Source: Escherichia phage vB_EcoM-LTH02
DNA: 64,000 nt
Sequence record: PP430346
Strand: one strand, 5' to 3'
The notes beneath the pieces are model-generated. The model was not told where the DNA came from. It worked only from the letters and a program-made list of their open reading frames with translations, and did no database searches. The first letter of the stretch is position 1. Every line of letters starts with the position of its first letter. Below, piece by piece: positions 18,641 through 62,957 of the stretch. A program made the translations under genes and the position numbers.

Positions 18641-18650
18641 TTTCTTTACA

Positions 18651-18670
18651 GGGGCTTTATAGCCCCTTTT
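18651..18670 (+). terminator. Rho-independent terminator after first tail fiber gene
   Basis: GGGGCT-TTAT-AGCCCC hairpin followed by TTTT. Confidence 0.55.
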
Positions 18671-18686
18671 AAGAGGAAAATTTATA

Positions 18687-21071
18687 ATGGCAGATTACAA
18701 ATTGAGTGAATTAAACTCAATCGACACAATCCGTTCAGATGACCTTCTTCATGTCAGAGTTAAAAAGAGACCTGAAATGCTGGGTGATGAAGACCGTCGA
18801 ATGACCTATCAAGATTTCTTAGCATCTTTTAAGCTTGAGAGATTTGTTCAGATTATTGGTAGTACCATGACGGGTGATTTAGGTATTGTTAAGTTACTTT
18901 ATGGTGGTAAGACAGTATTTGACCCTACAGGCTCTTCTGAGATTAATATTGGGGATGTTTTAAAGACTTTTAAAATTAACGCAAATGGTCTTAAGCTAAC
19001 TATTGCAGATGCTTCAAGGTCGGCAACTGTTTATCATACCCTGAATAAACCAAGTCCTAATGAGCTTGGGATGAGAACTAATGAAGAGAATGATGCAAGA
19101 TACTCAAGATTAGCTGCAAATAACATCTTTACCTTCCAACAGGTTATTCAAGCAAACGGTGAAGCCATTAGGTTAAAAAACTCTTCTGAGAACTCACCGC
19201 TGTATATTAGAGGTCAGGATAGCACTGGTGCTAATAGGTGGTATGTAGGTAATGGTTCAGGGAATGATGATGTTATTATCCACAACTACAAGACAGGTTG
19301 TGAAGTTAATCTGTCTAGTGTTGCTGCTATTAGCAAAACACTAAGAATCACTGGTCAAGTTCAACCATCTGACTTCTCTAACTTAGATGCTAGATATTTT
19401 ACTCAGACAGTAGCTAATCAGAGATTTGCACAGTTAGCTGCTAATAATAATTTTACTGGAACAAACACGTTTAGTAGAAACCTACTTATCATCAGTGACA
19501 GTGCTGCTTTAAGGTTGAAAAATACTGTAGCAAATGCTGCGCTATACGTTAAAGCCGAAGCTAATGATGGTTCTGGTAAGTGGTATGTAGGAAATGGTGA
19601 TAATACATCTGCTGTATTCCTCAGCAACTATGTATATGGTTCTTATCTTAGACTTGACAATGGACATGTCGCAGTCAACCAGAACTTCAGAATCACTGGT
19701 CAAGTTCAACCTTCAGATTGGGCTAACATTGACTCTAGATACATCCCAGCCGCAACTTTGAGTAACCTACCTAAACTTAATGTTGCTAACACATTTGTGA
19801 ATGTGCAAACTATTGTATCAAATAATGAAGGCGTAGTATTGAGGAACTTAACACAGGGACAGCCACAATATATCCGTGGTGTTGATACTGCGAATGTATC
19901 TAGGTGGTGGGTAGGTGTTGGTGGCACAAATTCTACTGATGTAGCATTAAACAACAGCTACTCTGGGACTCAAATTACTCTTATGTCCTCAGCGATTAAA
20001 GCTAATAAGAATCTAACCATTACTGGTCAAGTACAACCATCTGATTGGTCTAACTTAGATGCTAGATACTTTGTTAAGACTCAGTTATTAAATCAATCCT
20101 TGATGACTGTATCTGTAGATAATCTTGAAAACCCTTCAGCATTTAATCTTGGGTATTCAGGTTTTGTCAGAAACAACAGTGTGACTAGTGGTCTGAAAGA
20201 GTTGGCAATTCATGTTGCTCACTCTAATAAGTCTGCTGCACACGCAAGGGGTATCTCTTTTGTATACGGTTCAAACGGTTTGGCAACATTCACCTATGCC
20301 TATGACAAAAATGGTGACTATGCCGGAGAGGCACAGCTTTACACAACTGATTTTAAACCAACCCCTTCAGATATCGGTGCATACACTAAAGCTGAGACTG
20401 ACCAGAAGATTGCACAGGCAGTAAGTGACTCTACAGACCTTAATAAAATCTACCCAGTTGGTATTGTAACGTGGTTTAACAGTAATGTTAACCCTAACAC
20501 AGCGTTGCCTGGGTTAACTTGGACGTACCTGAACAATGGTGTTGGTAGAACTATCAGAATCGCAGCAGCAAACGGTTCAGATGTTGCTACAACTGGTGGT
20601 TCAGACTCTGTAACTTTAGCTGTTGGTAACTTACCATCACACACTCACAGTTTCTCTGCTACCACTTCATCTTTTGATTATGGTACGAAGGGCACTAATA
20701 GTACTGGTGGTCATACTCACTCTGTAAGTGGTACAACAAGTGCTGCTGGTAACCACGCTCACCACTTAGGTCTGCTATTGGTTAATGGTGGTGATGCTTT
20801 GTACGGATATACAACAGTTGGTAACAGCCTCCCTAGAACGCTTGACTGGCTTGATAGAAGAGATAACAAGTTCCCTAACACTAACACAACTGGTAACCAT
20901 ACACACACATGGTCTGGTACTACAAGCGGTGCTGGCGACCATTCCCACTCTGTAGGTATTGGTGCTCACAGCCACACAGTTAGTGGTAACACTGGTAGTA
21001 CAGGTTCTGGTTCGGCATTTAGTGTTACTAACCAGTTCTACAAGTTAATGGCTTGGGTAAGAACTGCTTAA
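18687..21071 (+). CDS. Long tail fiber protein
   Basis: 794 aa; three tandem ~115-aa repeats each containing RWYVGNG...ITGQVQPSD(F/W)SNLDARYF; C-terminal 190 aa paralogous to the preceding fiber ([28 protein letters not shown], ends WVRTA). Confidence 0.65.
19150..20100 (+). repeat. Three tandem ~345-bp coding repeats inside the long tail fiber gene
   Basis: Near-identical cores ATCACTGGTCAAGTTCAACC(A/T)TC(T/A)GA at 19347, 19692 and 20040. Confidence 0.6.
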
Positions 21072-21348: not shown

Positions 21349-21716
21349 AGTGGCTAGAGGAAGCTTTTAAAAATAATATTGGTGCAATTGTAGTTGGTAT
21401 TTTTAGTGTTATTGGGATGTATACCACCATGCAAGTCTCGGATGGTAAGCAAGAAGTGTCTATCACAACAAAGTTACAGCAGTTAGATAATTATTCCAAA
21501 AGTAATTATTCAGCTATTCGTGATTTACAGTCTGATATGAGGCTGCTTCAGCTAGGGATGGAGAACCAGAAAGTCCAGTTAGAGAATGTTAAGGGTGAGA
21601 ACGCAAAACTTACTAAGACTCTTGATAAATTCTCTGATAGTGTGAACAATCTGGCTCAATCAGTATCAGCCCTCCAAGCTATTACTGAAAAGAACACAAA
21701 GAATACTGAAAAGTAA
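21345..21716 (+). CDS. Membrane-anchored coiled-coil protein
   Basis: N-terminal TM helix (IGAIVVGIFSVIGMY) followed by a Q/L-rich helical domain; start overlaps the previous stop (ATGA). Confidence 0.35.
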   Translation: MKWLEEAFKNNIGAIVVGIFSVIGMYTTMQVSDGKQEVSITTKLQQLDNYSKSNYSAIRDLQSDMRLLQLGMENQKVQLENVKGENAKLTKTLDKFSDSVNNLAQSVSALQAITEKNTKNTEK

Positions 21717-21723
21717 AGTTTAA

Positions 21724-21749
21724 GGCTCCTTTTTACGGGAGCCTTTTTT
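21724..21749 (+). terminator. Rho-independent terminator closing the late/structural operon
   Basis: GGCTCC-TTTTTAC-GGGAGCC followed by TTTTTTGTTTT. Confidence 0.55.
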
Positions 21750-21752
21750 GTT

Positions 21753-22652
21753 TTATTTACCTACTGACAAAGGTGCTTCAATCTTTCCTGCATGTTGGTA
21801 ATTGTTAATACCACCGATAAAGTCACTTGCAGTGAGATGTTTTAAGTCACTTAAAGTGTTAAGCTGTAAACCAATCTCAAAAGTCGGTGCATGAAACTCT
21901 TCATTGTTCATCAGTTCATAAACCTGCTTCATATGATTCTGATAAATCTGAGTATCTCCAAAAACACCTATCAAGTACCGTGGAGTGTATCCAGTCATCT
22001 TACAAAGAACTTCCAGAATAAATCCATAAGATGCAATATTAAACGGAAGTCCTAAAAAGGTGTCTACAGAACGCTGATACCATTGTAAGTCAACTTCACC
22101 CTCGTTAGTGATATAAATCTGAAACAGAACATGACAAGGTGCTAGAGCCATTGAGTTTGCTGCAATATCTGCTGCATTCCAAGCATTAACAAGCATGTAA
22201 CGGTCTGTGATATCACCCTTCATCTTCGTTACTAAGGTCTCTAACTGGTCTACAACACAGCCGTTATGACCTTCAAAGTTTCTCCACTGAACCCCATAAA
22301 TCCTTCCACCTGCATCTTCTAACCAATCTTGCTCAGAAGAGTAATTAGAGCTTAACCAGCGTTTAAAATCATCTGACCAGATTGTCCAACGTTCACCATC
22401 ATTTTCACCCCAAGTACGGTAACGGAGTTCACCAAGCTTATTCTCACCGTTCAGGAACCATAAAGCTTCCCCAATAACTTGCCGTGTAAACACCTGTTTA
22501 GATGTTAAGAGAGGGAAACCAGTTCGCATATCAAAACGAAACTGAGGTGGAGCAAATGCAGAGATAACATCTCCAGTTCGTGTAGTACGCAGTTCACCAA
22601 CTGATAAAACATGGTTCAGGATATTTTTGTAACTTGAATCTGCTTGTGACAT
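21753..22652 (-). CDS. thyA: Thymidylate synthase
   Basis: Contains the catalytic PCH motif (LAPCHVLFQ) and DMRTGFPLLTSK folate/dUMP-binding region typical of ThyA. Confidence 0.85.
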   Translation of the reverse strand: MSQADSSYKNILNHVLSVGELRTTRTGDVISAFAPPQFRFDMRTGFPLLTSKQVFTRQVIGEALWFLNGENKLGELRYRTWGENDGERWTIWSDDFKRWLSSNYSSEQDWLEDAGGRIYGVQWRNFEGHNGCVVDQLETLVTKMKGDITDRYMLVNAWNAADIAANSMALAPCHVLFQIYITNEGEVDLQWYQRSVDTFLGLPFNIASYGFILEVLCKMTGYTPRYLIGVFGDTQIYQNHMKQVYELMNNEEFHAPTFEIGLQLNTLSDLKHLTASDFIGGINNYQHAGKIEAPLSVGK

Positions 22653-22653
22653 A

Positions 22654-23199
22654 TCAAAAGTGTCCTTTTACTTGTGGAACATAAATTTCAAAAGTTGCTT
22701 TACCATCCTCTGATGGTTTTGATTGTACCTTTGTAAATACACGGTTATCATACAGCTTCTCAAAGAAGTTTTCAAAAGGTAAATGCACAGTGGCCTCTTC
22801 AGTAACTTTATGGAAAACTGTATGGAACACCACACCAGCATACGGTAAAGCATTGACAAGGACACCTGCACCACCAATTACAAAGACATCTTCATCAATA
22901 GAGCTATCAAGATACTTCAAAAATGCTCCAAATGAATCTTTACTGGCTTTAGCATACATTACATCATCTTTGCCAAAGTCTATACCTAAGTATGGTACAG
23001 AATTTGTTAAGATGAGGTTTGCACGTTCTGGTAAAGGTTTACTACCCAGAGTCTTAAAAGTCTCATTACCCATCACTACTAAGTTATTTTTAGTGAGTCT
23101 CTTAAACTCTTGCATATCCTGTTTATGTCGAGGCCACGGCATACCAGTTGGAGTACCAAACTCACCATTTTCACCACTTGCAAAGATTAATTTAATCAT
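22654..23199 (-). CDS. frd: Dihydrofolate reductase
   Basis: N-terminus MIKLIFASGENGEFG...GMPW and internal VIGGAGVLVNALPYA match the DHFR fold signature; sits directly upstream of thyA as in T4-type td-frd pairs. Confidence 0.75.
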   Translation of the reverse strand: MIKLIFASGENGEFGTPTGMPWPRHKQDMQEFKRLTKNNLVVMGNETFKTLGSKPLPERANLILTNSVPYLGIDFGKDDVMYAKASKDSFGAFLKYLDSSIDEDVFVIGGAGVLVNALPYAGVVFHTVFHKVTEEATVHLPFENFFEKLYDNRVFTKVQSKPSEDGKATFEIYVPQVKGHF

Positions 23200-23456
23200 T
23201 TTGTAAACCCTCTCTTAATGAACCAGTTGATAACAGTCTTCACAGCTTTATTGCTATGATAGATTAAGTGTGGTGTAGGTTGGTATGAACCATAAGCCCA
23301 GAATGATAGGTGCTCACCACAACCAACACATGTAGTACTCTCTTCAGCTATATGACCATTAACAATCATATGAACTTCACCTTGTAAGTCTGTACATCCA
23401 CAATGTGGACAACGAATGGGTGTTCCATCAGACTCATAGCAGTGTTCAATTTTCAT
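23196..23456 (-). CDS. Zinc-ribbon protein
   Basis: CPHCGC...CVGCGEH pairs of CxxC; start overlaps DHFR stop. Confidence 0.4.
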   Translation of the reverse strand: MKIEHCYESDGTPIRCPHCGCTDLQGEVHMIVNGHIAEESTTCVGCGEHLSFWAYGSYQPTPHLIYHSNKAVKTVINWFIKRGFTK

Positions 23457-23972
23457 TTATTTAACCTCAAAAACTGGTTCAAGAACCAATATAAAGTCTA
23501 CACAGTCATCTTCTTCATCCAGAATACCATCAAAGTTCTTAGGAACGAAGTCGAAGAGGCTCATAACAAAGCAGTCAGAAGTAACTCTAATAGTGCCTCC
23601 CATATTCTCTACAGTCAACACTGTACGACTTTCTTTTACCTCTCTCAGAAGATTACTCACAAAGTCATCTAAGAAGTACTTCATCAGTGACTTAAAACCT
23701 TTAGGGTAATCTGTACCAGAGTATGTTTCAATCTGAGGTACAAGCTTAACATTTATACTAGTCTTTGCTAAGAACGTGCTAGAGAACATACTATCAGGTA
23801 ACTTGCAAACAGTCTTTCCAGTGCCTTCATGCTCAATCTCAACAAAACCAGCTTCATCACCACACGTAACTATTTTAAAAGATGCTTCATTCTCATACTG
23901 TGAAGCCATGAACTTTTTAAGCATCACTTTAAGGAAATCTGCATGAGCATCTTGTAAGTAGATATCAATCAT
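23457..23972 (-). CDS. Hypothetical protein
   Basis: 171-aa ORF in a tightly packed minus-strand early-type block. Confidence 0.4.
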   Translation of the reverse strand: MIDIYLQDAHADFLKVMLKKFMASQYENEASFKIVTCGDEAGFVEIEHEGTGKTVCKLPDSMFSSTFLAKTSINVKLVPQIETYSGTDYPKGFKSLMKYFLDDFVSNLLREVKESRTVLTVENMGGTIRVTSDCFVMSLFDFVPKNFDGILDEEDDCVDFILVLEPVFEVK

Positions 23973-23985
23973 AATTCATCACCTA

Positions 23986-24345
23986 TTATGGGAACAGACA
24001 CTTGATGTCATCATTTTTGAAAACAAAGCTTGTGTAGTTGTGACCGTCAACATCCAACCAAACAGCCTGAACATCTACACCATCAAGATTCTGGTAAAGC
24101 TCTTTGATGAAGTGGTCTTTCACAATCTGACTGCTAGTTGTTTCCAGCTTAATGTTTGAGATTGCTGAACCTACAGCCATATAACCCATGACGCGTTTCT
24201 TCTCAGTATGCTTAATCTTACCATCTTTGTAGGCCATAATGAGATTGGAAAGAATCTTCACACCATAATACTTTTCAAGGTGAGTTGGTACACCATAAAA
24301 GCCTAATGCGAAGTTTTCAGAGTGGATAATGTTTTCACGTTTCAT
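23986..24345 (-). CDS. Hypothetical protein
   Basis: 119-aa ORF, same block. Confidence 0.4.
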   Translation of the reverse strand: MKRENIIHSENFALGFYGVPTHLEKYYGVKILSNLIMAYKDGKIKHTEKKRVMGYMAVGSAISNIKLETTSSQIVKDHFIKELYQNLDGVDVQAVWLDVDGHNYTSFVFKNDDIKCLFP

Positions 24346-24346
24346 A

Positions 24347-24676
24347 TTAATCTGCCAACCTTAAATTAAAATTAACACCAAATTTTTCACATACTTCCAA
24401 CATAAACTCAAGAGAGACATTACCAGTGAGGTTGATTATGTTGGATACACGAGCCTGAGAGATACCACAAATTTTAGCAACTTGCTCTTGAGAAAGACCT
24501 CTGGATTTAATCTCTCTCTTAAAACGATGTGCAACGAAGTCTCTCATTTCGTCTACATCCATTGGACAAATATAACTCTCCATTTCAGCCTCTCTGTCAG
24601 CCTCCCAATCATCTTGTGGAGCATAAGGGTCAAAAACCTCATTCATCTTTCTTCTTCCGTTTTCGTGAAGTGTCAA
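24347..24676 (-). CDS. HTH (XRE/Cro-C1 type) DNA-binding protein; possible alternative start at 24646
   Basis: LSQEQVAKICGISQARVSNIINLTGNVSLEFMLEVCEKFGVNFNL is a classic helix-turn-helix XRE signature. Confidence 0.55.
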   Translation of the reverse strand: MTLHENGRRKMNEVFDPYAPQDDWEADREAEMESYICPMDVDEMRDFVAHRFKREIKSRGLSQEQVAKICGISQARVSNIINLTGNVSLEFMLEVCEKFGVNFNLRLAD

Positions 24677-24851
24677 TCAATGAATCTATGTTTGTAGCCC
24701 TAACCTTTTCACGTTCATCGTTAAGATAATCATCAAGAGCCTTTTCAATCTGTGAATCATCTTGACAGATAACTGTAAAGACTGTAAAGCCGTCTGTATC
24801 GTCAATTATCTTACCATAACCGCTTCTGGGATGTAACTTTTTAAGAGCCAT
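24639..24851 (-). CDS. Small protein partner upstream of the HTH gene
   Basis: 70-aa ORF overlapping the start of the HTH gene on the same strand. Confidence 0.35.
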   Translation of the reverse strand: MALKKLHPRSGYGKIIDDTDGFTVFTVICQDDSQIEKALDDYLNDEREKVRATNIDSLIDTSRKRKKKDE

Positions 24852-24852
24852 A

Positions 24853-25236
24853 TCAAATACCTGTGCAGCTTCTGTTTTCTAAGAAATACTCAACACCATA
24901 CATAGCTTTTTGCATCAAATCTTCTTTAAACTGAATACGATGATTGAGCATAGCCTGTACATCAATATCATCAGGGTGCTTCTCTTTAATATTTGCAGAT
25001 TGCAGGAAATACTCTGCAAGAACACGATACTGATAGTCAGTTACCTTATCAGTCATCTCTGTTAAAGACTCTTCAGAGATTGGTTTAAGTAACTCACCAT
25101 TAGCTAGAGCAACACCTTTAACAATCTGGCAAGTATCTTCTGGAACACCTGATAAGTCCACATTTGGAAGTTCTGTTGCATTGACTGGTAAATTCATTGC
25201 CATAACCATTGCAGCAGCTAATAAAATCTTTTTCAT
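24853..25236 (-). CDS. Secreted/periplasmic protein with Sec signal peptide
   Basis: N-terminus MKKILLAAAMVMAMNLPVNA-TE has the n/h/c-region layout of a signal peptide with an AxA-type cleavage site. Confidence 0.45.
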   Translation of the reverse strand: MKKILLAAAMVMAMNLPVNATELPNVDLSGVPEDTCQIVKGVALANGELLKPISEESLTEMTDKVTDYQYRVLAEYFLQSANIKEKHPDDIDVQAMLNHRIQFKEDLMQKAMYGVEYFLENRSCTGI

Positions 25237-25280
25237 AATGACCTCAAAGTTATATTAAATTTTGTATTACGTTGAGTATA

Positions 25281-25309
25281 AAAATAAGCTATAACACCTG
25301 ACTTGTCAA
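25281..25309 (-). promoter_or_regulatory. Candidate sigma70-like promoter for gene 24853-25236
   Basis: On the minus strand TTGACA (25309-25304), 17-nt spacer, TATTTT (25286-25281). Confidence 0.3.
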
Positions 25310-25327
25310 CAGATTTTATAGCTTATT

Positions 25328-25374
25328 TTGGCAGATTTTTTTATAAGGCTACTGCCATCCTTCCATACATTACC
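25328..25374. repeat. Conserved 47-bp block X, copy 1
   Basis: TTGGCAGATTTTTTTATAAGGCTACTGCCATCCTTCCATACATTACC; identical to 26863-26909; contains inverted repeat TGGCAG/CTGCCA. Confidence 0.7.
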
Positions 25375-25576
25375 TTACCACACCCTACCATACCTAACCA
25401 AACTACACCATACAATACCTTGTTAAAAGACCTTGTTTAAATGCCTTTTAAAAAGGTAAGTCTCATTTTAATGTAGCTGAGACTAACTACCCATACATTA
25501 CCTTACCATACCAGACCTCACCCTACCTTAACTTACCTTACTCTATCCTACCAAACACCACTTAAAAACCCTCTTA
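25355..25576. repeat. G-free CA/T-rich tracts of degenerate TACC-like units (island 1)
   Basis: Plus strand has no G at 25355-25421 and only one G (25514) across 25482-25576; built of TACC(A/T)-like units. Confidence 0.65.
25423..25492 (-). terminator. Conserved module Y copy 1: minus-strand intrinsic terminator with conserved downstream leader
   Basis: On the minus strand, hairpin GGUA..AGUCUCA-loop-UGAGACUUACC followed by UUUUU; 70-bp block differs from copy at 26968-27037 at 2 positions. Confidence 0.5.
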
Positions 25577-25594
25577 GAAGACTCTTAAGTGATG
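25559..25594. repeat. Conserved block Z copy 1 (CACTTAA...TTAAGTG inverted repeat)
   Basis: CACTTAAAAACCCTCTTAGAAGACTCTTAAGTGATG; repeated with one indel at 27144-27180; followed by a second hairpin with loop TTTTTATGTAGC. Confidence 0.55.
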
Positions 25595-25697
25595 TAATCG
25601 GATTTTTATGTAGCTCCGATTAACTACCCATACCAAGCCTAACCTGACCGCACCAAACTTTACAACACCACACCATACCTGACCATACCAAACCTCA

Positions 25698-25749
25698 TTA
25701 AAAGACCCTCTTAAAGACCTTTTAAAAAGGAGCCTCCGAAGAGGCTACC
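25698..25749 (-). terminator. Y-like module copy 3: terminator directly downstream of gene 25758-26198
   Basis: Same leader TTAAAAGACC(C)TCTTAAAGACCTTTTAAAAAGG joined to a different hairpin (GGAGCCTC-CGAA-GAGGCT); on the minus strand the hairpin is followed by UUUUU. Confidence 0.5.
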
Positions 25750-25757
25750 TAGTCAAC

Positions 25758-26198
25758 TTAGAAAGGCTTTCTACGTTGCTTGTTAATGTTAGCTTTCATA
25801 GCAGCTAAGTGGTTTTGCTGTTCAATTAGTCGTGAACGTTCTTGGTGGCTAAGTGCCATAGTGTTCACATTCTCAATCGCTTGAGTGGCTTGCTTTAAAG
25901 CACGACCAATCTTACCAGACATTTTACGTTTTGCAATAGTTGCTTGATGTTTAGGTTCAACCACACGATAACCAACACCCATTGAAGCAACCAGATAAAT
26001 CTTCTCTTCTTTAAGAAGTTTTTCAATGAACTTCTCAAGCCGGTTTAGACGTGTAAGCGCATAAGCCTTCATCTCATCTTCGTACTTAACAATGTCGCCT
26101 TGATAAGTTGGCTTCACAATACCTAAGAAGGTATCCATCTCAGAGTGTGATACAGTGTCACCGTAACTAAACTTTGCTGCTAATGCTTTTGTATTCAT
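25758..26198 (-). CDS. Hypothetical protein (cassette gene 2)
   Basis: 146-aa ORF; ATG at 26198; flanked by structured non-coding islands. Confidence 0.45.
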   Translation of the reverse strand: MNTKALAAKFSYGDTVSHSEMDTFLGIVKPTYQGDIVKYEDEMKAYALTRLNRLEKFIEKLLKEEKIYLVASMGVGYRVVEPKHQATIAKRKMSGKIGRALKQATQAIENVNTMALSHQERSRLIEQQNHLAAMKANINKQRRKPF

Positions 26199-26200
26199 AA

Positions 26201-26806
<606 letters not shown>

Positions 26807-26862
26807 TTAGTTGATTGTTAAGTTGTTTGTAAAGAACCCTCAACAGAAGACTCTTTAGAAAC

Positions 26863-26909
26863 TTGGCAGATTTTTTTATAAGGCTACTGCCATCCTTCCA
26901 TACATTACC
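26863..26909. repeat. Conserved 47-bp block X, copy 2
   Basis: Identical by eye to 25328-25374. Confidence 0.7.
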
Positions 26910-26967
26910 AAACAGTACTGTGCCACAACACACCATACCCAACCCCACCTAACTCTACCACACCTCA

Positions 26968-27037
26968 TTAAAAGACCTTGTTTAAAGACCTTTTAAAAAG
27001 GTAAGTCTCATTTTAATGTAGCTGAGACTAACTACCC
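26968..27037 (-). terminator. Conserved module Y copy 2: minus-strand terminator downstream of DNA ligase
   Basis: Same hairpin (stem AGTCTCA/TGAGACT, loop TTTTAATGTAGC) and leader as 25423-25492. Confidence 0.5.
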
Positions 27038-27143
27038 TTACCAGACCTAGCCTTGCCTTACCATACCGTACTTTACCTTACCGTACCGTACTTTACCCTA
27101 CCGTACCGGACAATACTTAACCCGACCTCGCCCTACCGGACAT
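27027..27143. repeat. G-poor TACC/CCG-rich tract (island 2) including a 20-bp tandem direct repeat at 27066-27105
   Basis: CCGTACTTTACCTTACCGTA followed by CCGTACTTTACCCTACCGTA (1 mismatch). Confidence 0.6.
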
Positions 27144-27180
27144 CACTTAAAAACCCTCTTAGAAAGACTCTTAAGTGATG
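27144..27180. repeat. Conserved block Z copy 2
   Basis: CACTTAAAAACCCTCTTAGAAAGACTCTTAAGTGATG followed by hairpin GGTGAGTAC...GTATACTCACC. Confidence 0.55.
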
Positions 27181-27245
27181 CTGGTGAGTACCCGTTGGTT
27201 TATGCTGCTCAGTATACTCACCAAATTTTCTATGTCAACAACTTT

Positions 27246-28346
27246 TTATTCGTAGTCTCGAATAACTAACCCAACAGGGAACTGTAAAGAACCTTTACGA
27301 GTCATCTTCTGGAACTGAACCGTCAAAGGTTTCCCGATAAACTCTTCAGGATGTTCAGCAAGATACTGTTTCTTCTCATGAGTAGTCTTCCATGAGACAT
27401 CCACAAAGACGTTAGGAAGAGTCTCTACAACAAACTTGCCATGACCACGCTTATCAGTCTTTACACCAGTCACTTTAAACTCTTCAGTGTGCATCTTCTT
27501 GTGCTTAATCAAGAAGTATGAACGGTGACAACACTCATAGAAGGAGTCTTCAGAGATTGAACGGTACATTGCACCTTCAAACTTAGCTTCAACCCACTTA
27601 TCATGAGCTTCATCAAACTCTTCCCAAGAATTTACACGACGAGACTTAACAGGGACAACTTTGCAGCCATCTCTAAAGTCATTCAATGGTGAAGTCTCAA
27701 TAATATCTCTACGCTCAGGCCACGTTTTAGTACTGTCACAGATATCATACCAGTAGAACTGGAGTAGATGTCGGTCTGGATTGTCAGCATTCTTAATCAT
27801 AGACACAATATCTTCTAAGTCCCAACCATGAGCATAAATCTCACCATCAAAATCTTCGACCTGTGGATGCAATTTAAGCAACAAAAGTAAATCTGGGATT
27901 AGTTCTGCTGGGACGTTGTAAACAGTATTCTCACGAGAATAAGCCGTGAAGCTAACTGAATCAGCATCCCTTGAAATTCTACAACGGACACCATCAAGTT
28001 TTGGTTGAGCATCAGCAGGGAACTTCAAATACTTTGCATGACTAACCTTTGCAGCATCATGAGCAAGCTGTACACCTACCTTTTCAGTGTTCTGTGCAGA
28101 CTCTTTTGTGTAAGCATAACCTTTACGGTCAACTTGCTTTTTATACTTAGCAGCAACTTCAAAGAGAGCTTGCTGTTCAGCATTACGCCCATTCTTTTTA
28201 CCGATGTTCTTCGGTTCTGCTGTATACTCTTCAAACATCATCTTGCCATTTTCTTTACCGTAGGTTGTAATAACTTTGTCACCTACAGCAACGCATGACC
28301 AGACGTTAAAAGAGCCGTCTTTATTTTGTTTGTACAGTATTGTCAT
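27246..28346 (-). CDS. ATP-dependent DNA ligase (T7-like); ATG at 28346 preferred over 28382
   Basis: Adenylation motif KLDGVR (PKLDGVRCRI); GAGGA RBS 6 nt upstream of the ATG at 28346, which also removes overlap with the upstream ORF. Confidence 0.75.
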   Translation of the reverse strand: MTILYKQNKDGSFNVWSCVAVGDKVITTYGKENGKMMFEEYTAEPKNIGKKNGRNAEQQALFEVAAKYKKQVDRKGYAYTKESAQNTEKVGVQLAHDAAKVSHAKYLKFPADAQPKLDGVRCRISRDADSVSFTAYSRENTVYNVPAELIPDLLLLLKLHPQVEDFDGEIYAHGWDLEDIVSMIKNADNPDRHLLQFYWYDICDSTKTWPERRDIIETSPLNDFRDGCKVVPVKSRRVNSWEEFDEAHDKWVEAKFEGAMYRSISEDSFYECCHRSYFLIKHKKMHTEEFKVTGVKTDKRGHGKFVVETLPNVFVDVSWKTTHEKKQYLAEHPEEFIGKPLTVQFQKMTRKGSLQFPVGLVIRDYE

Positions 28347-28347
28347 T

Positions 28348-28539
28348 TTATTCCTCTGAGTGATACCAAGTATTGCAAGCATTACATGCGTAAAGCTCTA
28401 AGTCATTTTTATCTGGTTTATGAAAACAGTTTGCTCCGCAGTGGCAACGAAACGGCTTTCCACCAACTGTCAGGATGAAGGATTGAACCTTTCCATCAGG
28501 AGTCCGTACAGCATTTTTATGCTTGTCTTCTTTATTCAT
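28348..28539 (-). CDS. Small zinc-finger protein
   Basis: 63 aa with CHCGANC...CNAC cysteine/histidine cluster. Confidence 0.35.
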   Translation of the reverse strand: MNKEDKHKNAVRTPDGKVQSFILTVGGKPFRCHCGANCFHKPDKNDLELYACNACNTWYHSEE

Positions 28540-28695
28540 TTGTGATATTGCCTTTGTCAGATTTCATATAGGACATGTTACTATGCCTTTTAATAAAATG
28601 TACAACGCATTTTGGTGTATCTTTTGTGTCTTTGATGTGCAATCTATCGAAACTGTGTACTGTGAAGGTTGCATCTGTCATTGTTTGCTTAGGTT

Positions 28696-29001
28696 TCATT
28701 TTCTCTTACCACCAATCTCTACGTCAATAACTTGAACATCACCAGCAACATCAAACTTATGAATGATGCTTTCCACAGTGTAAGTCCAACCCTCGATTCG
28801 AACCAACTCACCTTCTCGTGGGACGATTGGGTTACGTTGGGCTACCGTTGTAGTGGAGTGAACAGTATCATAACAGTAGATATAGTTTACTAGAACTTCC
28901 ATCTTGAACACCTCACTCAATAACAGTAGTGTGTGATTGACCATTTTTACCATAGCTATAAGATGTTGTTGTTTGAGAGTTTGGACATCTGACAACAACA
29001 A
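28696..29001 (-). CDS. Hypothetical protein (start uncertain)
   Basis: ORF on minus strand; internal Met may be the true start. Confidence 0.3.
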   Translation of the reverse strand: MLLSDVQTLKQQHLIAMVKMVNHTLLLLSEVFKMEVLVNYIYCYDTVHSTTTVAQRNPIVPREGELVRIEGWTYTVESIIHKFDVAGDVQVIDVEIGGKRK

Positions 29002-29173
29002 TGTCTCTGCTTATGGCATCACCATGTAACTTATAGACTTTGCAATCTTGCATCTCTGGTGGGAGGCTATAAGAAGCGTTTTTGTCCTCGTAAGAGGGAT
29101 TACAGCCAGATAGAAAGATAACACTAAGCACAATTACTGCTTTCCACATAATACTTCTCCTGTTACTGTTCAC
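28913..29173 (-). CDS. Lipoprotein
   Basis: Signal peptide plus lipobox: MWKAVIVLSVIFLSGC (L-S-G-C). Confidence 0.45.
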   Translation of the reverse strand: MNSNRRSIMWKAVIVLSVIFLSGCNPSYEDKNASYSLPPEMQDCKVYKLHGDAISRDIVVVRCPNSQTTTSYSYGKNGQSHTTVIE

Positions 29174-29318
29174 GATGTTCTACTTCTCTGTACGTTCGTC
29201 GATAGTTTATAATAAGCTGTGCTAACTCGTTGCTTTTAACATCTGAACGTAGGAGTTGCCAATCAAAACCTTTACCGACTCTTCCATATAAACTAAAGAA
29301 TTTTAGTTTGCGTTTCAT
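29163..29318 (-). CDS. Small ORF (51 aa) not in the supplied track
   Basis: ATG at 29318 preceded by GGAGA; MKRKLKFFSLYGRVGKGFDWQLLRSDV...; below the track length cutoff. Confidence 0.3.
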   Translation of the reverse strand: MKRKLKFFSLYGRVGKGFDWQLLRSDVKSNELAQLIINYRRTYREVEHREQ

Positions 29319-29335
29319 TTTGGTATCTCCAATAC

Positions 29336-29563
29336 TCAGATGTCAATGCTAATACGTTCACCCTTAAGGACTCCTGTACGGTCCCTTGCAATCTTACCGT
29401 CAACAATAAGGATATGTGCAGACCTTAAAGATTCGCCATTAAAAGCTTTTACGAACTTACAAGGCATTACCACAATAGACATCTCCTGAATCAACTCTGG
29501 AGTATAGCAATTGTCGTGAAGTTGCTGAATAACGTCTGCAAGTGTCATTTTTGATGTCTCCAA
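29336..29563 (-). CDS. Hypothetical small protein
   Basis: 75-aa ORF upstream of 29163-29318 on the same strand. Confidence 0.35.
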   Translation of the reverse strand: METSKMTLADVIQQLHDNCYTPELIQEMSIVVMPCKFVKAFNGESLRSAHILIVDGKIARDRTGVLKGERISIDI

Positions 29564-29754
29564 TATTCAATGTCAATAAGTTCTTGTGCAATGCTTTTCA
29601 GATTGCCTTTCAAGAAAACCTTCTCAGAACCTGAAAGAGATGAATTGTCAATTAGCCTGTTCATTCTCTCAAACAACTTCTGCTTACGATTCTTGATAGT
29701 CTCCTTTGAAGCACCTTTCATCATCGCTGCATGGGTTCTTCCACGGTGGCTCAT
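29545..29754 (-). CDS. Hypothetical small basic protein
   Basis: 69-aa ORF overlapping the next gene start. Confidence 0.35.
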   Translation of the reverse strand: MSHRGRTHAAMMKGASKETIKNRKQKLFERMNRLIDNSSLSGSEKVFLKGNLKSIAQELIDIEYWRHQK

Positions 29755-29815
29755 AAGCCCTCCTATATAAGATATTGTATAAGGTACTCTTCCATGAGCA
29801 CCTTGTCAATACTAA

Positions 29816-32515
29816 TTAGTGTACCTCAAGCCAGCTTTTACCAACCTTACCAGTACCTGTAACAAGTGTTTCTTTCTTAAGACCTAAGTTCTTAGAAGCT
29901 TGTCCATAATACCAGTCAGTAACTGCTTTCACTTCTGCCGTCATACTCTCTGGACATTCCCAACTTGTTTCATCGTGATATGCACAGAGCAAACGAGCAC
30001 CAATAGCTGGTTGACGACCATTTAACTTCATTAAACCTTCGTCAATCATACGACGACAAGCGAGGTTAATTGCCTCATTTTGAATCTGAGCCTCTGAACC
30101 CATCAAAAGATAGTTCAACAGTTTGTGTGGAGATTTACACCACAACCAAGCTCCAGCAACCTTTACAAATCCCCCTTTAGAAATTGCAGCAGTCTTACCA
30201 AACACCTCTTCAAGTGCCTTTTTAGTCGCTTTGTAGTCAGCTTCCAAGTCATCTAACAGCTTCTTAATTTTAGGCAAACGAATAAAGTAAGTCTGTTTAG
30301 TCAGTGCACCTTCCTGAGTAGTTGCAGCTTTAATTGTCTTAGCAAACTTCTCATCCCCTGCACCGAACAGTAGCGCATAGATACCATTCTTAGCTTTCTT
30401 ACGACCCTTACTAATCTCATGAAGAAGATTCTCATCCTGAGTAGCTCGACAAGTCAAGATATCCTGCTCATCATTCAAGCTAAAGTAAATACTGTTCAGT
30501 GTGTGTGCATCAGTCCCTGAATAGACAACGTAAAGGTCATTCTCAGAGTCATAGCGAAGGTACTTATCAATCTCTGGATTGAGGTACTCATCAAAGTGTT
30601 TGCAATAATAGCGTCCATCTTCTTGACGAATAAACTCAATCTCTTCTTTACCTTGCGTAACCGCTTTGGTGAAGTCTTTGTCACCCATAAAGTTACAAAG
30701 AAGAACTAGCTGGGCTGAGTTCATGTCTACAGAGACAACGTTAGTACCTTCTTCACAAATCCACACTGCCCTCATTGGTTCCCCATAGACAGCAGCACCA
30801 GACGGTACGTTTACAATACCATATTGTGTCATACGTCCAGTTGAAGTACCAAATACCATTGCACCAGCACTAAGGCGACCATCAGGACGAATCTGGTTCA
30901 ACCAACCTTTTTCATCATCCTTTGAGTTCTCAATAGTTCTACGTCGGTGCATCAAAGTATAGTATCTCGCAATCTTCTGTCCAAGCTCACCTTCAATCGT
31001 ATCATAAGATGATTCAGTAAGTTTTGGTGAAGTACGGATTAAGCAAGGCTCAAGCAAATCTGTGTACTTCTTCACAGACCAGTTATGTTCAATGTACTGG
31101 ACACCTTCGTGTTCAACATAACTCAAACCACACCGCTCCACCATCTCATCCCACTTAGGATGTTTTGTAATCATCTTTTTGTTGTCTTTGAAACGACAAA
31201 CCTTAACAGGACGACCATCTGAGTCTTTCTTATAGTTCCAGTCATCTGGAATCCAACCAACTGATTTTAAGTAGTCTTTAACAACTGCTACCTGAGTCAT
31301 ACGAGAAACTTCGAACTCAATTGGTGTATAAGGTGCATCAATCAAACCTGTGTAGCGACTTGACTCAAGCTCAAAGTGATTAACAACATGGCTGTTATAG
31401 TACTTCACAGTTTTAACTGTTTTTACTGGCTTCCAGTCTTTGCATTTCTTACCAATCTTTGCATTCAACTCATTACAAATTGCACGAGCATCCTTCATTG
31501 CTACAAAACCTTCCTTGTACTCTTCACCAGTTACAGAGTTGGTTGGTGTATAGCAATTCCGCTTTTCAATGTTAAAAATCTTTGTAGTTGGCTTACCAAA
31601 TGGCTTGATTTCATATGTCTGCATCTCACCGTTACGTACCTGTTGACGATACTTTGTCTTAGGGTACTTGGTAATTCTCTTCAGCCCATCTGCATGACCG
31701 AATGCTTCAACATACTCATTCCAAGCTTTTGCAAACTCTTCTCCAGTAACTTTACCTTTGGTCTTAATAGTTGGTGGAAGGTGTGGTTCAACTTCCGAAG
31801 CAAGCTCATTAGTCAACTTGTCAAGTTCCTTTACATGGAACTCCATAAGCTCTTTATCAGCTTTCCAACCATTGATAGCCTGTTGACTCATCCAGAAAGA
31901 TGTTTCTTTAGCTCGCATGTAGGTTTCATAAGTATCTACGCCACACTTCTTTAGCTTGAGATATTCATTATCCAGTGCGCGTTTAGTTTTGGCGTTAATA
32001 CGGATATCTTCCACAACACGAGTGAAGATTTCTGCATTCCACACACCCCAATGTTCAATCTCTGGTTTACGTACACCAACACGAGCACCCCATGCAGCCA
32101 AGCCATGAGCACCTTTATAACCTTTTGGAGTTGGTCTATCCATCCACTGAACACGGGACTGGATAAGAGAATCCTGAAAGAAATTACTCCACGGCTTACA
32201 CTTTGGATTATCAAAGTTCCACAAATCAGGTGCAATGTGATTGAAAACCCACCAGTCATACCCTAGACCATTATGGATGCAAAGCCGTTTTGCCTTTAAC
32301 GCAAACTCAACACCTTCACGCAAACCACCCTTAATGTACTTGGTATACTTGTGACCGAGGATAGGCTCATCTGTAAAGACCCATACAGGTGGCTCTTCAT
32401 CGTCAGATTTATAGTCTGCGAAAGCCATTACGTGTACTTTAGTGAACTCAAGGAGTAAACCATCAGTTTCTGTATCACCAACTAAATGTAAGTTTTTAAA
32501 ATCTACGTTTTCCAT
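29816..32515 (-). CDS. DNA polymerase, family A, with 3'-5' exonuclease domain; ATG at 32515 preferred (track start 32545)
   Basis: Exo I motif DTETDGL; Pol A motif A (DMNSAQL), motif B (KGRKKAKNGIYALLFG) and motif C (YHDE); strong GAGGGAG RBS precedes the ATG at 32515. Confidence 0.85.
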   Translation of the reverse strand: MENVDFKNLHLVGDTETDGLLLEFTKVHVMAFADYKSDDEEPPVWVFTDEPILGHKYTKYIKGGLREGVEFALKAKRLCIHNGLGYDWWVFNHIAPDLWNFDNPKCKPWSNFFQDSLIQSRVQWMDRPTPKGYKGAHGLAAWGARVGVRKPEIEHWGVWNAEIFTRVVEDIRINAKTKRALDNEYLKLKKCGVDTYETYMRAKETSFWMSQQAINGWKADKELMEFHVKELDKLTNELASEVEPHLPPTIKTKGKVTGEEFAKAWNEYVEAFGHADGLKRITKYPKTKYRQQVRNGEMQTYEIKPFGKPTTKIFNIEKRNCYTPTNSVTGEEYKEGFVAMKDARAICNELNAKIGKKCKDWKPVKTVKTVKYYNSHVVNHFELESSRYTGLIDAPYTPIEFEVSRMTQVAVVKDYLKSVGWIPDDWNYKKDSDGRPVKVCRFKDNKKMITKHPKWDEMVERCGLSYVEHEGVQYIEHNWSVKKYTDLLEPCLIRTSPKLTESSYDTIEGELGQKIARYYTLMHRRRTIENSKDDEKGWLNQIRPDGRLSAGAMVFGTSTGRMTQYGIVNVPSGAAVYGEPMRAVWICEEGTNVVSVDMNSAQLVLLCNFMGDKDFTKAVTQGKEEIEFIRQEDGRYYCKHFDEYLNPEIDKYLRYDSENDLYVVYSGTDAHTLNSIYFSLNDEQDILTCRATQDENLLHEISKGRKKAKNGIYALLFGAGDEKFAKTIKAATTQEGALTKQTYFIRLPKIKKLLDDLEADYKATKKALEEVFGKTAAISKGGFVKVAGAWLWCKSPHKLLNYLLMGSEAQIQNEAINLACRRMIDEGLMKLNGRQPAIGARLLCAYHDETSWECPESMTAEVKAVTDWYYGQASKNLGLKKETLVTGTGKVGKSWLEVH

Positions 32516-32575
32516 TTTTACTCCCTCTAAAATCATTAACCTCATACATTACTGCAAAAAATTATAAAAAGCAAG

Positions 32576-62664: not shown

Positions 62665-62871
62665 ATGATTTACAGCCGTGAATTGATGGTCACAACTAAC
62701 GTTAACACAAAGGTAAAACGTTTTTATATGCAAGTATGCGGCGCATGGCGTAGAATATCAGAATCTGACTATTGCAACTATGTAGAAACGGCTATTAATT
62801 CTAATTGCTATCTTACAAGAAACACTAAGAAATTTACAAGGCAGACAGCGATTTACTACTACGACAAATAA
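62665..62871 (+). CDS. Small protein 1 of 3' array
   Basis: 68-aa ORF with GGAGA RBS; stop codon forms the start of the downstream palindrome. Confidence 0.4.
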   Translation: MIYSRELMVTTNVNTKVKRFYMQVCGAWRRISESDYCNYVETAINSNCYLTRNTKKFTRQTAIYYYDK

Positions 62872-62957
62872 AGTACTTTACAGGGGGCTTAAAAGCTGAT
62901 ATCTTAAGCCCCAGATAAAGAGCTTTACCACTAAATCCTAAACTGGAGAACTTAAAA
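62869..62957 (+). promoter_or_regulatory. Repeated leader cassette A: palindrome TAAAGTACTTTA - GC hairpin - TAAAGAGCTTTA - RBS
   Basis: Palindrome 62869-62880; stem GGGGCTTAA/TTAAGCCCC (62884-62912); second half-palindrome 62916-62927; GGAGA then ATG at 62958. Confidence 0.6.

What the first reader, a model, noticed from the sequence alone, without database searches (positions are those of the whole stretch)
25355..25576. Long G-free TACC-repeat tracts: extreme strand asymmetry in non-coding DNA
Within the islands the plus strand runs for 67 nt (25355-25421) and about 95 nt (25482-25576, single G at 25514) without guanine, built from degenerate TACC(A/T) units; island 2 has a related tract with a 20-bp tandem duplication (27066-27105). 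Transcripts of the local minus-strand genes would be C-free and GGUA-rich (possible G-quadruplex or protein-binding platform), whereas any plus-strand read-through RNA would be C-rich and G-free, the classic feature of Rho utilisation sites. Such composition is unlikely by chance in a roughly 40% GC genome.
Basis: seen in the sequence. Interest (0 to 1): 0.6.

Follow-up and report, generated by a model that had tools for sequence, protein, structure and literature searches.

The report
Phage VIPR guide-RNA arrays
The G-free "TACC" tracts are the antisense view of five guide-RNA genes of a VIPR system, a recently described CRISPR-like, RNA-guided gene-silencing system that phages use against rival mobile elements; here it is real and apparently complete, but already known.

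Summary
25355-25421 and 25515-25576 are the two longest G-free runs in the window. The real signal is a strict 5-nt period: NNACC on the + strand, GGYNN on the transcribed - strand.

The window is a Felixounavirus. The two islands flank a two-gene cassette:
- vipr (26201-26788, -) is 98% identical to the phage SUSP1 Vipr protein, whose structure is solved (PDB 36pp).
- vap1 (25758-26198, -) is 99% identical to its SUSP1 counterpart.

The tracts are five vrRNA genes. Each has 11-20 GGYNN units followed by a conserved 3' pseudoknot tail. This is a type II VIPR (Viral Interference Programmable Repeat) locus, as described in two 2026 bioRxiv preprints. Vipr polymerises on the GGY motifs. The NN dinucleotides read double-stranded DNA with one base skipped per unit, and binding silences transcription.

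Under that rule, four guides match an E. coli satellite phage (82-90% of NN positions; the 82% match is weak). The fifth matches the conserved vrRNA tail just upstream of vipr in rival Felixounaviruses. No guide matches the window itself.

The Rho-site and G-quadruplex readings are not supported, and G-freeness is not conserved in relatives. Verdict: already known; the anti-VIPR guide is a possible new detail.

The parts
27211..27238 (-). Sigma-70-type promoter TTGACA-16-TATACT (11 of 12) directly after the DNA ligase stop codon. It probably drives vr1-vr2-vipr-vap1.
   Evidence: Consensus scan. A promoter is annotated at the same place in phage ASO1B. That it functions is inferred.
27141..27180 (-). 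Leader hairpin CATCACTTAAGAG...CTTAAGTGATG upstream of vr1. Its role is unknown (processing or 5' end definition?).
   Evidence: Sequence. Conserved in relatives.
   Evidence: Under the 1-nt skip rule it matches 36 of 40 NN positions in satellite L150 5691-5749, with the skipped base at the codon wobble position.
27004..27037 (-). vr1 3' tail, type T1 pseudoknot (S1 GTAGT/GCTAC, S2 AGTCTCA/TGAGACT).
26965..26994 (-). vr2 leader with two direct half-sites AAGGTCTTTAA / AAGGTCTTTTAA.
26900..26964 (-). vr2 repeat tract: 13 units, several with a degenerate first G and one with T at position 2.
   Evidence: It matches the T3-type vrRNA tail DNA of rival VIPR loci at 22-25 of 26 NN positions, and a satellite's own vrRNA tail at 24 of 26.
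26865..26899 (-). vr2 3' tail, type T2 pseudoknot (S1 AAGG/CCTT, S2 GGCAG/CTGCC). It sits where 117 phage records carry a T3 tail.
26201..26788 (-). vipr gene (195 aa; the mechanical ORF list extends it to a GTG at 26803). RAMP-family protein that polymerises on the vrRNA.
   Evidence: PDB 36pp_D 'SUSP1 Vipr protein', E = 7e-128. 191 of 195 identical to SUSP1. Homologues lie beside GGTNN arrays in about 40 unrelated viral contigs.
25758..26198 (-). vap1, the VIPR accessory gene (146 aa).
   Evidence: 145 of 146 identical to the SUSP1 gene downstream of vipr. The preprint calls this gene vap1.
25731..25746 (-). Intrinsic-terminator-like hairpin (UUCG loop) plus U-run after vap1.
25630..25694 (-). 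vr3 repeat tract: 13 units.
   Evidence: 24 of 26 NN match in satellites L153 5713-5750 and L155 4108-4145.
25596..25629 (-). vr3 tail, T1 pseudoknot with the alternative S2 stem AATCGGA/TCCGATT.
   Evidence: compensatory changes.
25556..25594 (-). Leader hairpin of vr4.
25493..25552 (-). vr4 repeat tract: 12 units.
   Evidence: 21 of 24 NN match in satellite L157 192-226.
25459..25492 (-). vr4 tail, T1 pseudoknot.
25420..25449 (-). vr5 leader with half-sites.
   Evidence: 18 of 22 NN match just upstream of the first satellite gene (L149 7615-7646, L151 5327-5358). This is weak: 9 of 300 shuffles reach it.
25330..25364 (-). vr5 tail, T2 pseudoknot.
25281..25309 (-). Promoter-like site for the downstream 127-aa gene. 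It marks the boundary of the locus and is not part of VIPR.
   Evidence: annotated in ASO1B.

Best explanation
The tracts are the DNA of five vrRNA guide genes of a type II VIPR (Viral Interference Programmable Repeat) system of the SUSP1 clade, carried by a Felixounavirus.

How it works:
- The minus strand is transcribed into roughly 100-nt RNAs. Each is made of 11-20 GGYNN pentamers capped by an invariant 3' pseudoknot.
- One Vipr protomer (gene 26201-26788) binds each repeat and sequesters G1, G2 and Y3.
- The resulting helical filament presents the NN dinucleotides.
- These pair with double-stranded DNA that reads NNxNNx..., with one base skipped per unit. The complex forms an R-loop triplex that blocks transcription.
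- Vap1 (25758-26198) enhances the effect.

In this phage, four guides are aimed at an E. coli satellite phage that shares structural genes with this phage group, mostly at its first operon gene and promoter. One guide is aimed at the vrRNA tail upstream of vipr in competing Felixounaviruses.

Shown here: the protein identities, the repeat anatomy, the tail covariation, the target matches and the absence of self-targets.

Taken from the preprints: RNP formation, the skip rule, silencing, and the proposal that the satellite parasitises SUSP1.

Inferred: that this phage expresses and uses the system in the same way.
For: Protein evidence:
- The 200-aa ORF hits PDB 36pp_D 'SUSP1 Vipr protein' at E = 7e-128 and is 98% identical to SUSP1 Vipr.
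- Twelve of the thirteen residues named in the cryo-EM preprint are present: H17, K33, R39, E71, M72, K82, G87, K88, R138, C173, D177, W178, R179. The thirteenth is discussed under evidence against.
- Vap1 is 99% identical to its SUSP1 counterpart.

Independent linkage:
- A scan of IMG/VR with (GGTNN)7GGT alone returned, besides plain microsatellites, 69 loci with heterogeneous tracts.
- About 40 of these unrelated contigs encode a homologue of this protein beside the array.

Repeat statistics over 78 unique tracts:
- Position 2 is G in 98%.
- Position 3 is always a pyrimidine.
- Positions 4-5 have 1.9 bits of entropy.
- The mode is 11-13 units.

Tail pseudoknot: 98% of cells are paired, with compensatory changes in both helices of the T2/T3 tails and in S2 of the T1 tails. 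Slid controls give 26-50% paired.

Targets under the 1-nt skip rule:

| Guide | Best NN match | Unit-order shuffles reaching it |
|---|---|---|
| vr1 | 36/40 | 0/300 |
| vr2 | 24/26 | 0/300 |
| vr3 | 24/26 | 0/300 |
| vr4 | 21/24 | not shuffle-tested; found only after four more satellite loci were added |
| vr5 | 18/22 | 9/300 |

For vr1-vr3, skip rules 0, 2 and 3 give only background matches. The best self-match in the window is 77% or less.

Literature: bioRxiv 10.64898/2026.04.26.720920 and 10.64898/2026.04.26.720927.
Against: - There are no expression or binding data for this phage.
- vr1 has 20 units, outside the 9-16 range reported.
- vr2 and vr4 contain several units with a degenerate first G, and vr2 has one unit with T at position 2, so their efficiency is uncertain.
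- The vr5 target match is weak: 82%, reached by 9 of 300 shuffles.
- vr4 found no target in the first five satellite loci (17/24, reached by 282 of 300 shuffles). Its 21/24 match in L157 was not shuffle-tested.
- Only nine satellite variants were scanned, not the E. coli pangenome.
- The preprint names T175, whereas both SUSP1 and the window have V175 in my alignment.
- The two source papers are preprints.
Confidence: 0.95

Rival explanations
1. Rho-utilisation sites: the C-rich, G-free plus-strand RNA made by read-through or antisense transcription would load Rho and terminate antisense transcripts across the early-gene block.
For: The plus strand of the tracts is C-rich and almost G-free over 60-70 nt, a size that fits a Rho loading site.
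Against: - G-freeness is not conserved. Relatives keep the 5-nt GGY period but carry C at 15-17% of the variable minus-strand positions, which are G on the plus strand.
- A Rho site needs no exact 5-nt register, no invariant pyrimidine, no pseudoknot tail and no linked vipr gene.
- The nearest strong plus-strand transcription ends at a terminator at 21722, more than 3.5 kb away. No strong plus-strand promoter-like site lies nearby.
Confidence: 0.02
2. Structural nucleic-acid element: GG runs on the minus strand form two-tetrad G-quadruplexes or promote R-loops, acting as a replication origin, a pause element or a transcription block.
For: There are regular GG runs every 5 nt on the non-template strand. 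The islands lie next to replication genes (ligase, DNA polymerase) and contain promoters and AT-rich palindromes.
Against: - A quadruplex does not explain the invariant Y at position 3, the hypervariable NN, the 3' pseudoknot with covariation, or the NN-to-target code.
- In the cryo-EM structures each guanine is held singly in a protein pocket.
- FelixO1 replicates with only one degenerate tract.
Confidence: 0.02
3. Repeated regulatory or recombination cassettes, like the promoter-stem-loop modules of T4-type phages: the islands are just promoter-terminator modules whose similarity mediates gain and loss of the two-gene cassette.
For: - The two islands share a 190-nt repeat at 77% identity and flank a cassette that FelixO1 lacks.
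- The number of modules varies between relatives.
- The vr2 tail looks copied from vr5 (D12).
Against: This explains how the cassette moves, not why GGY is conserved with a 5-nt period or why the NN decode to satellite sequences. It is compatible with the VIPR reading rather than an alternative to it.
Confidence: 0.03
4. Neutral pentanucleotide microsatellite produced by replication slippage.
For: Local duplications of units occur, such as GGTCA x3-4 in relatives and the 20-bp duplication in vr1. Plain GGTNN microsatellites do exist in other viral contigs.
Against: - A slippage array is homogeneous. Here positions 4-5 are near maximum entropy while positions 2-3 are nearly invariant.
- Tract length is held near 11-14 units.
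- The duplicated part of vr1 is matched by its target.
Confidence: 0.01

Closest known systems
Type II VIPR system of Escherichia phage SUSP1 (bioRxiv 10.64898/2026.04.26.720920 and .720927; PDB 36pp)
   Same: - Vipr is 98% and Vap1 99% identical.
- Same gene order, between DNA ligase and the 127-aa gene.
- vrRNAs lie on both sides of the genes.
- Same GGYNN repeats and the same pseudoknot tails.
- Guides decode by the 1-nt skip rule to the same E. coli satellite family.
   Different: - Different guide repertoire.
- Two vrRNAs upstream of vipr instead of one, so five in all rather than four.
- One guide has 20 units, against the reported 9-16.
- The vrRNA next to vipr carries a T2 tail instead of T3, and its guide matches the T3 tail of SUSP1-like loci (23 of 26 on SUSP1 itself).
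Class 1 CRISPR-Cas effector backbones (Cas7 filaments on crRNA)
   Same: An RRM/RAMP protein polymerises along a guide RNA, a thumb periodically flips bases, and a conserved RNA handle caps a variable guide. The guide is used against mobile elements. The relationship is taken from the preprints.
   Different: - No repeat-spacer array, no cas1/cas2 adaptation genes and no nuclease.
- The guide is discontinuous: 2 of every 5 RNA bases pair with 2 of every 3 DNA bases.
- No PAM requirement.
- Phage-encoded.
TRAP bound to the Bacillus trp leader (11 GAG/UAG triplets with 2-3 nt spacers)
   Same: An RNA with a conserved triplet every ~5 nt and free spacers, read by one protein subunit per repeat. 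From my own knowledge, this analogy first pointed me to a protein-binding periodic RNA.
   Different: TRAP is a closed ring that controls attenuation and has no guide function. The two are unrelated in sequence and fold. There is no membership; the resemblance is only in logic.

Membership tests
VIPR, type II, SUSP1 clade | Vipr protein (~20 kDa RAMP homologue); the clade is defined as >90% identity to SUSP1 Vipr. | tested here: met
   191 of 195 identical. PDB 36pp_D E = 7e-128.
VIPR, type II, SUSP1 clade | Residues that bind G1, G2, Y3, the skipped base and the non-target strand. | tested here: met
   H17, K33, R39, E71, M72, K82, G87, K88, R138, C173, D177, W178 and R179 are all present. 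Position 175 is V in both SUSP1 and the window, whereas the preprint text says T.
VIPR, type II, SUSP1 clade | Adjacent vap accessory gene (vap1). | tested here: met
   145 of 146 identical to the SUSP1 gene next to vipr. No Pfam domain.
VIPR, type II, SUSP1 clade | vrRNAs of 9-16 YNNGG repeats with conserved GGY and hypervariable NN, in the intergenic regions flanking the genes. | tested here: met
   Five tracts of 20, 13, 13, 12 and 11 units. Family statistics. vr1, at 20 units, exceeds the stated range.
VIPR, type II, SUSP1 clade | Invariant 3' tail that folds into a pseudoknot. | tested here: met
   Covariation counts on alignments A1 and A2: 98% paired, with compensatory pairs in both helices.
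VIPR, type II, SUSP1 clade | NN dinucleotides match natural DNA targets by the 1-nt skip rule at >=80%, and not by other skip lengths. | tested here: met
   vr1 90%, vr2 92%, vr3 92%, vr4 88%, vr5 82%. For vr1-vr3, skip 0, 2 and 3 give background and 0 of 300 shuffles reach the observed match. The vr4 match in L157 was not shuffle-tested, and vr5 is reached by 9 of 300 shuffles.
VIPR, type II, SUSP1 clade | No self-targeting at >=80% NN match. | tested here: met
   The best skip-1 matches in the 64-kb window are 60-77%. Only this window was available, not the whole genome.
VIPR, type II, SUSP1 clade | vrRNAs expressed as ~100-nt RNAs, bound by Vipr, and able to silence target transcription. 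| not testable with these tools
   Known for SUSP1 from the preprint. Only promoter- and terminator-like sites can be shown here.
Rho utilisation (rut) site | C-rich, G-poor, unstructured RNA on a strand that is actually transcribed and untranslated, with this composition conserved. | tested here: not met
   The C-rich strand is antisense to all local genes. No strong plus-strand promoter lies nearby. G-poverty is not conserved in relatives.
G-quadruplex-forming element | Four or more G-runs whose only constraint is the G-runs themselves. | tested here: inconclusive
   GG runs are present. However, there is extra conservation of Y3, of the tail and of the NN code, none of which a quadruplex needs. 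Folding was not assayed.
CRISPR array | Identical 25-40-nt direct repeats separated by unique spacers, usually with cas genes. | tested here: not met
   The repeat search finds no such array. Rfam finds nothing in the region. There are no cas genes in the neighbourhood.

The most novel reading that the evidence does not exclude
vr2 of this phage may be an 'anti-VIPR' guide. Under the 1-nt skip rule it matches 22-25 of 26 NN positions on the conserved T3-type vrRNA tail. That tail lies about 85 nt upstream of vipr in 117 Felixounavirus-like GenBank records, including SUSP1, Moogle and the closest relative KEP3, and also in a satellite's own vrRNA.

The phages that carry this guide are the window phage, Salmonella phage SPJ41 and Escherichia phages REP8-12. 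Parsing of the window, SPJ41 and REP8 shows a T2 tail at exactly that position, which drops the self-match in the window to 69%. REP9-12 match the same vr2-tail-flank stretch at 97% identity but were not parsed. The NN of vr2 are nearly identical in these three phages (one base differs in SPJ41), although their other guides differ.

If true, the guide would silence a rival phage's VIPR operon during co-infection, and the tail swap would be the self-immunity step. The preprint text reports VIPR-versus-VIPR targeting only for the Pseudomonas clade. It searched SUSP1-clade guides only against E. coli chromosomes and plasmids, so this case may be unreported.
Probability: 0.5. Interest if true: 0.55.

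Novelty: already known. Interest (0 to 1): 0.4.

Why it matters
VIPR is a newly described RNA-guided DNA-recognition system with a discontinuous code, proposed as the ancestor of the CRISPR RAMP proteins. This window adds no new kind of system, but it gives three things.

- **Independent replication.** Starting from sequence alone, the central claims were recovered without using the preprint's pipeline: GGY/NN anatomy, the pseudoknot tail, linkage to vipr across unrelated viruses, the 1-nt skip rule and satellite targeting.
- **An apparently complete five-guide locus.** Its predicted targets are listed and can be tested directly.
- **A candidate case of VIPR aimed at rival VIPR loci,** with an apparent self-avoidance swap of the tail.

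For annotation, long intergenic 'TACC/GGTA repeat' islands in Felixounaviruses are currently unannotated or labelled repeat_region, promoter or terminator. They should be annotated as vrRNA genes, and phrog_4652 and phrog_5926 as Vipr and Vap1.

Tried and rejected
Searches that gave nothing for the feature itself:
- Rfam at a permissive threshold over 21-34 kb gave only a weak, probably chance STnc100 match at the 21722 terminator.
- Pfam found nothing for the 200-aa, 146-aa and 127-aa proteins. PHROGs gave only 'unknown function' families.
- Pfam found nothing for the targeted satellite genes.
- A first literature search (Felixounavirus / intergenic / repeat) led only to the PhageMaP paper, which does not treat these islands.
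- No supplementary files of the VIPR preprint were held, so its target tables could not be compared.

Ideas considered before the protein link was found, and then dropped:
- a TRAP-like ring protein binding 13 repeats;
- a cluster of T7-type primase recognition pentamers, or a replication origin;
- an array of elemental RNA-polymerase pause sites (G-10, Y-1, G+1);
- boxA-like antitermination sites in the leaders;
- ops- or sigma-70 -10-like motifs in the non-template strand;
- Chi-like or RecA-preferred GT-rich DNA;
- BREX GGTAAG decoys;
- type III toxin-antitoxin RNA mimics;
- terminase pac sites or partition-site repeats.

None of these explains the hypervariable positions 4-5 together with the pseudoknot tail and the linked gene.

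The other long G-free runs of the window (24355-24411, 32508-32553) are unrelated. The satellite vrRNA found in L152 does not target the window (18 of 28).

Full report
**1. The observation.** The plus strand runs 67 nt without G at 25355-25421. It runs 95 nt with a single G (25514) at 25482-25576. These contain the two longest G-free runs of the window. The 20-bp tandem duplication in island 2 is also real.
- No shuffle of the window reaches a 67-nt run (0 of 500).
- In the locally G-poor minus-gene block, 11 of 1000 shuffles do, though none gives two such runs.
- The much stronger signal is an exact 5-nt period. On the minus strand every tract reads GGTNN GGTNN.... Ten of 13 consecutive slots carry ACC on the plus strand, against a maximum of 5 in shuffles.
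- Only five tracts in 64 kb show this, all in the two islands and all on one strand.
- The other long G-free runs are ordinary sequence.

**2. Context.** The window is a Felixounavirus, 94% identical to phage KEP3 over 24800-27300.
- Genes from 21753 to 32545 are on the minus strand.
- Island 2 (26804-27245) lies between the DNA ligase gene and a 200-aa ORF.
- Island 1 (25237-25757) lies between a 146-aa ORF and a 127-aa ORF.
- FelixO1 lacks both ORFs. It has a single 282-bp island with one degenerate tract. So the islands are direct repeats flanking an accessory two-gene cassette.
- Public records leave the islands unannotated or label them repeat_region, promoter or terminator.

**3. Anatomy across relatives.** I fetched 23 related loci through the 127-aa protein and parsed 78 unique tracts.
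- The flanks are nearly invariant.
- Inside the tracts, position 2 is G in 98%, position 3 is always a pyrimidine (T 90%), and position 1 is G in 75%.
- Positions 4 and 5 are close to random (1.9 bits each).
- Most tracts have 10-14 units.
- C is common at the variable positions in relatives such as Moogle.
- Each tract ends in a conserved 34-35-nt tail. Three tail types share a pseudoknot design. Compensatory changes occur in both helices of types T2/T3 and in stem 2 of type T1. Overall 98% of cells are paired, against 26-50% when partners are slid.

**4. The link to a protein.** A scan of IMG/VR for (GGTNN)7GGT returned plain microsatellites. It also returned 69 loci with heterogeneous tracts in unrelated contigs of 29-73% GC. 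Many of these were long arrays with a 64-85-nt super-period, always on one strand.
- ORF calling and all-against-all BLAST showed that about 40 of these contigs encode a homologue of the window's 200-aa ORF next to the array, typically immediately upstream.
- The association was found from DNA pattern alone, so it is independent of any annotation.

**5. Identification.** The 200-aa ORF matches PDB entry 36pp, 'SUSP1 Vipr protein', at E = 7e-128.
- Two 2026 bioRxiv preprints from one group (10.64898/2026.04.26.720920 and .720927) describe VIPR systems.
- The components are a RAMP-family Vipr protein, an accessory Vap, and ~100-nt vrRNAs made of 9-16 YNNGG repeats with a 3' tail. In the SUSP1 clade the tail is a pseudoknot.
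- One Vipr protomer binds each repeat and buries G1, G2 and Y3. The exposed NN dinucleotides pair with double-stranded DNA, skipping one base per unit.
- Binding forms an R-loop triplex and silences transcription, without a PAM and on either strand.
- In the SUSP1 clade, 18 of 20 assignable guides hit an E. coli satellite phage.

**6. Membership tests.**
- The window's Vipr is 191 of 195 identical to SUSP1's. It keeps every residue the structure paper names for RNA and DNA contacts, except that position 175 is V in both phages where the preprint says T.
- Vap1 is 145 of 146 identical.
- There are five vrRNAs: two upstream of vipr (vr1 with 20 units, vr2 with 13) and three downstream of vap1 (vr3 with 13, vr4 with 12, vr5 with 11).
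- I located the satellite through its baseplate gene, which is present in 474 of 5426 complete E. coli genomes. I fetched nine variants.

Matches under the 1-nt skip rule:

| Guide | Best NN match | Where |
|---|---|---|
| vr1 | 36/40 | first gene of the satellite operon, skipped base on the wobble position |
| vr3 | 24/26 | same gene family, opposite strand |
| vr4 | 21/24 | a related first gene in another satellite variant |
| vr5 | 18/22 | just upstream of that gene |

- Skip lengths of 0, 2 or 3 give background only for vr1-vr3. No unit-order shuffle reaches the observed match for vr1-vr3 (0 of 300).
- vr5 is weaker (9 of 300). The vr4 match in L157 was not shuffle-tested.
- No guide reaches 80% on the window itself.
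- Scanning 76 guides from relatives gave 109 hits at 84% or more. All fell inside the satellite, except hits on the VIPR-locus region of two relatives: the window's vr2, and one short 9-unit guide that is probably chance. None fell in the flanking E. coli genes or on this window. This reproduces the preprint's main biological claim.

**7. A detail that may be new.** vr2 matches the T3-type vrRNA tail, not a satellite gene.
- It scores 24 of 26 on a satellite's own vrRNA and 22-25 of 26 on the tail that lies just upstream of vipr in other Felixounaviruses. These include SUSP1 (23/26) and Moogle (24/26).
- That T3 arrangement occurs in 117 phage records.
- The window carries a T2 tail at that position, apparently copied from vr5 (D12). 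Its self-match is only 18 of 26.
- The same vr2 with the same tail swap occurs in Salmonella phage SPJ41 and in Escherichia phage REP8, whose other guides differ. Their substitutions in vr2 fall mainly on the tolerant G1 position; one NN base differs in SPJ41. REP9-12 match the same stretch at 97% identity but were not parsed.
- The closest relative, KEP3, has a T3 tail and a different vr2.
- This suggests a guide that silences rival VIPR operons, with self-avoidance by tail replacement. That is inference. vr2 also has several degenerate GGY units, so its activity needs testing.

**8.
- 'Protein-binding platform on the minus-strand RNA' is right in general terms.
- The rut-site idea concerns the untranscribed sense and relies on a non-conserved property.
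- The quadruplex idea leaves Y3, the NN code, the tail and the gene linkage unexplained.
- Before the protein link emerged I weighed many other readings: a TRAP-like ring, primase sites, pause arrays, boxA, Chi, BREX decoys and pac sites. None accounts for the data.

**9. Verdict.** This is a real, apparently complete type II VIPR locus of the SUSP1 clade. It is already known as a kind and as a clade, and the finding is explained.
- Confidence in the identification is about 0.95.
- Still open: expression in this phage, the role of the leader hairpins and half-sites, whether a 20-unit guide works as one filament, and the anti-VIPR reading of vr2.

Noticed in passing
L003 20001-20282 (Salmonella phage FelixO1): FelixO1 lacks vipr and vap1. 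Between the ligase gene and ORF204 it still has the promoter, the leader hairpin, one degenerate ~12-unit GG-period tract and a T2 tail. This is an orphan vrRNA with no Vipr of its own. It could be a deletion remnant, or a guide that uses the Vipr of a co-infecting phage.
   Followed up: partly
L159 2512-2611 (Salmonella phage SPJ41); L160 2512-2611 (Escherichia phage REP8): The window's vr2 guide and its T2 tail (with a run of 7 A) are conserved in these phages with near-identical NN dinucleotides (one base differs in SPJ41). Their other vrRNAs are different.
   Followed up: yes
L149-L157 (E. coli chromosomes): The targeted satellite is about 10-15 kb. It carries serine recombinases, a tape-measure gene and a baseplate gene. 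It is integrated in yecE or beside tonB/yciI, and other flanking genes occur (lpxL side in L157). Its baseplate gene is present in 474 of 5426 complete E. coli genomes. Its most-targeted gene (185 aa, for example L150 5532-6089) has no Pfam match.
   Followed up: partly
L152 3122-3191 (-): One satellite variant has its own promoter-driven vrRNA (14 units) with a T3-like tail and a terminator, but no vipr gene. It presumably borrows the helper phage's Vipr. It does not match the window (18 of 28).
   Followed up: partly
L138 2609-12927; L092; L087; L034 and L137; L041: Unrelated IMG/VR contigs carry much larger arrays than the 9-16 units described: single in-phase tracts of 79, 47, 42 and 30 units, 18 back-to-back tracts, and arrays with fixed punctuation (GGTAAGGCTAATGG every 68 nt; GGAATGGTTTAATGAATTTAAT every 85 nt). 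These may be the 'staggered' or other array types the preprint mentions.
   Followed up: partly
IMG/VR loci L046, L050, L087, L127, L129, L140 and others: A second protein family of about 165 aa recurs next to the arrays in 9 loci, in several of them between the Vipr homologue and the array. It is probably another vap type. It was not characterised.
   Followed up: no
window 25420-25449, 26965-26994, 25695-25723; 25556-25594, 27141-27180: Every vrRNA is preceded by one of two conserved leaders. One has two direct half-sites (AAGGTCTTTAA..AGGGTCTTTTAA, somewhat boxA-like). The other is a 10-bp hairpin (CACTTAAGAG...CTTAAGTG). Their role, for example 5' end formation or a promoter, is not covered in the parts of the preprints I read.
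   Followed up: no
window 62868-63775: Three copies of a ~92-nt repeat (83-100% identical) contain a GGGGCTTA...TAAGCCCC hairpin and end at a start codon. They look like repeated regulatory modules in front of small genes.
   Followed up: no
window 18140-20984: Several families of internal repeats rich in His codons (CAC/CAT) are shared between two adjacent tail-fibre genes.
   Followed up: no
window 21670-21754 (+): A weak Rfam match to sRNA STnc100 (22.7 bits against a gathering score of 47, E = 0.17) overlaps the strong terminator at 21722-21745. It is probably chance.
   Followed up: no
window Vipr residue 175 (within 26201-26788): The cryo-EM preprint names T175 as part of the Y3 pocket. 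In my alignment both SUSP1 and the window have V at 175 (..NLCGVGDWR..). This may be a numbering or text issue in the preprint.
   Followed up: no
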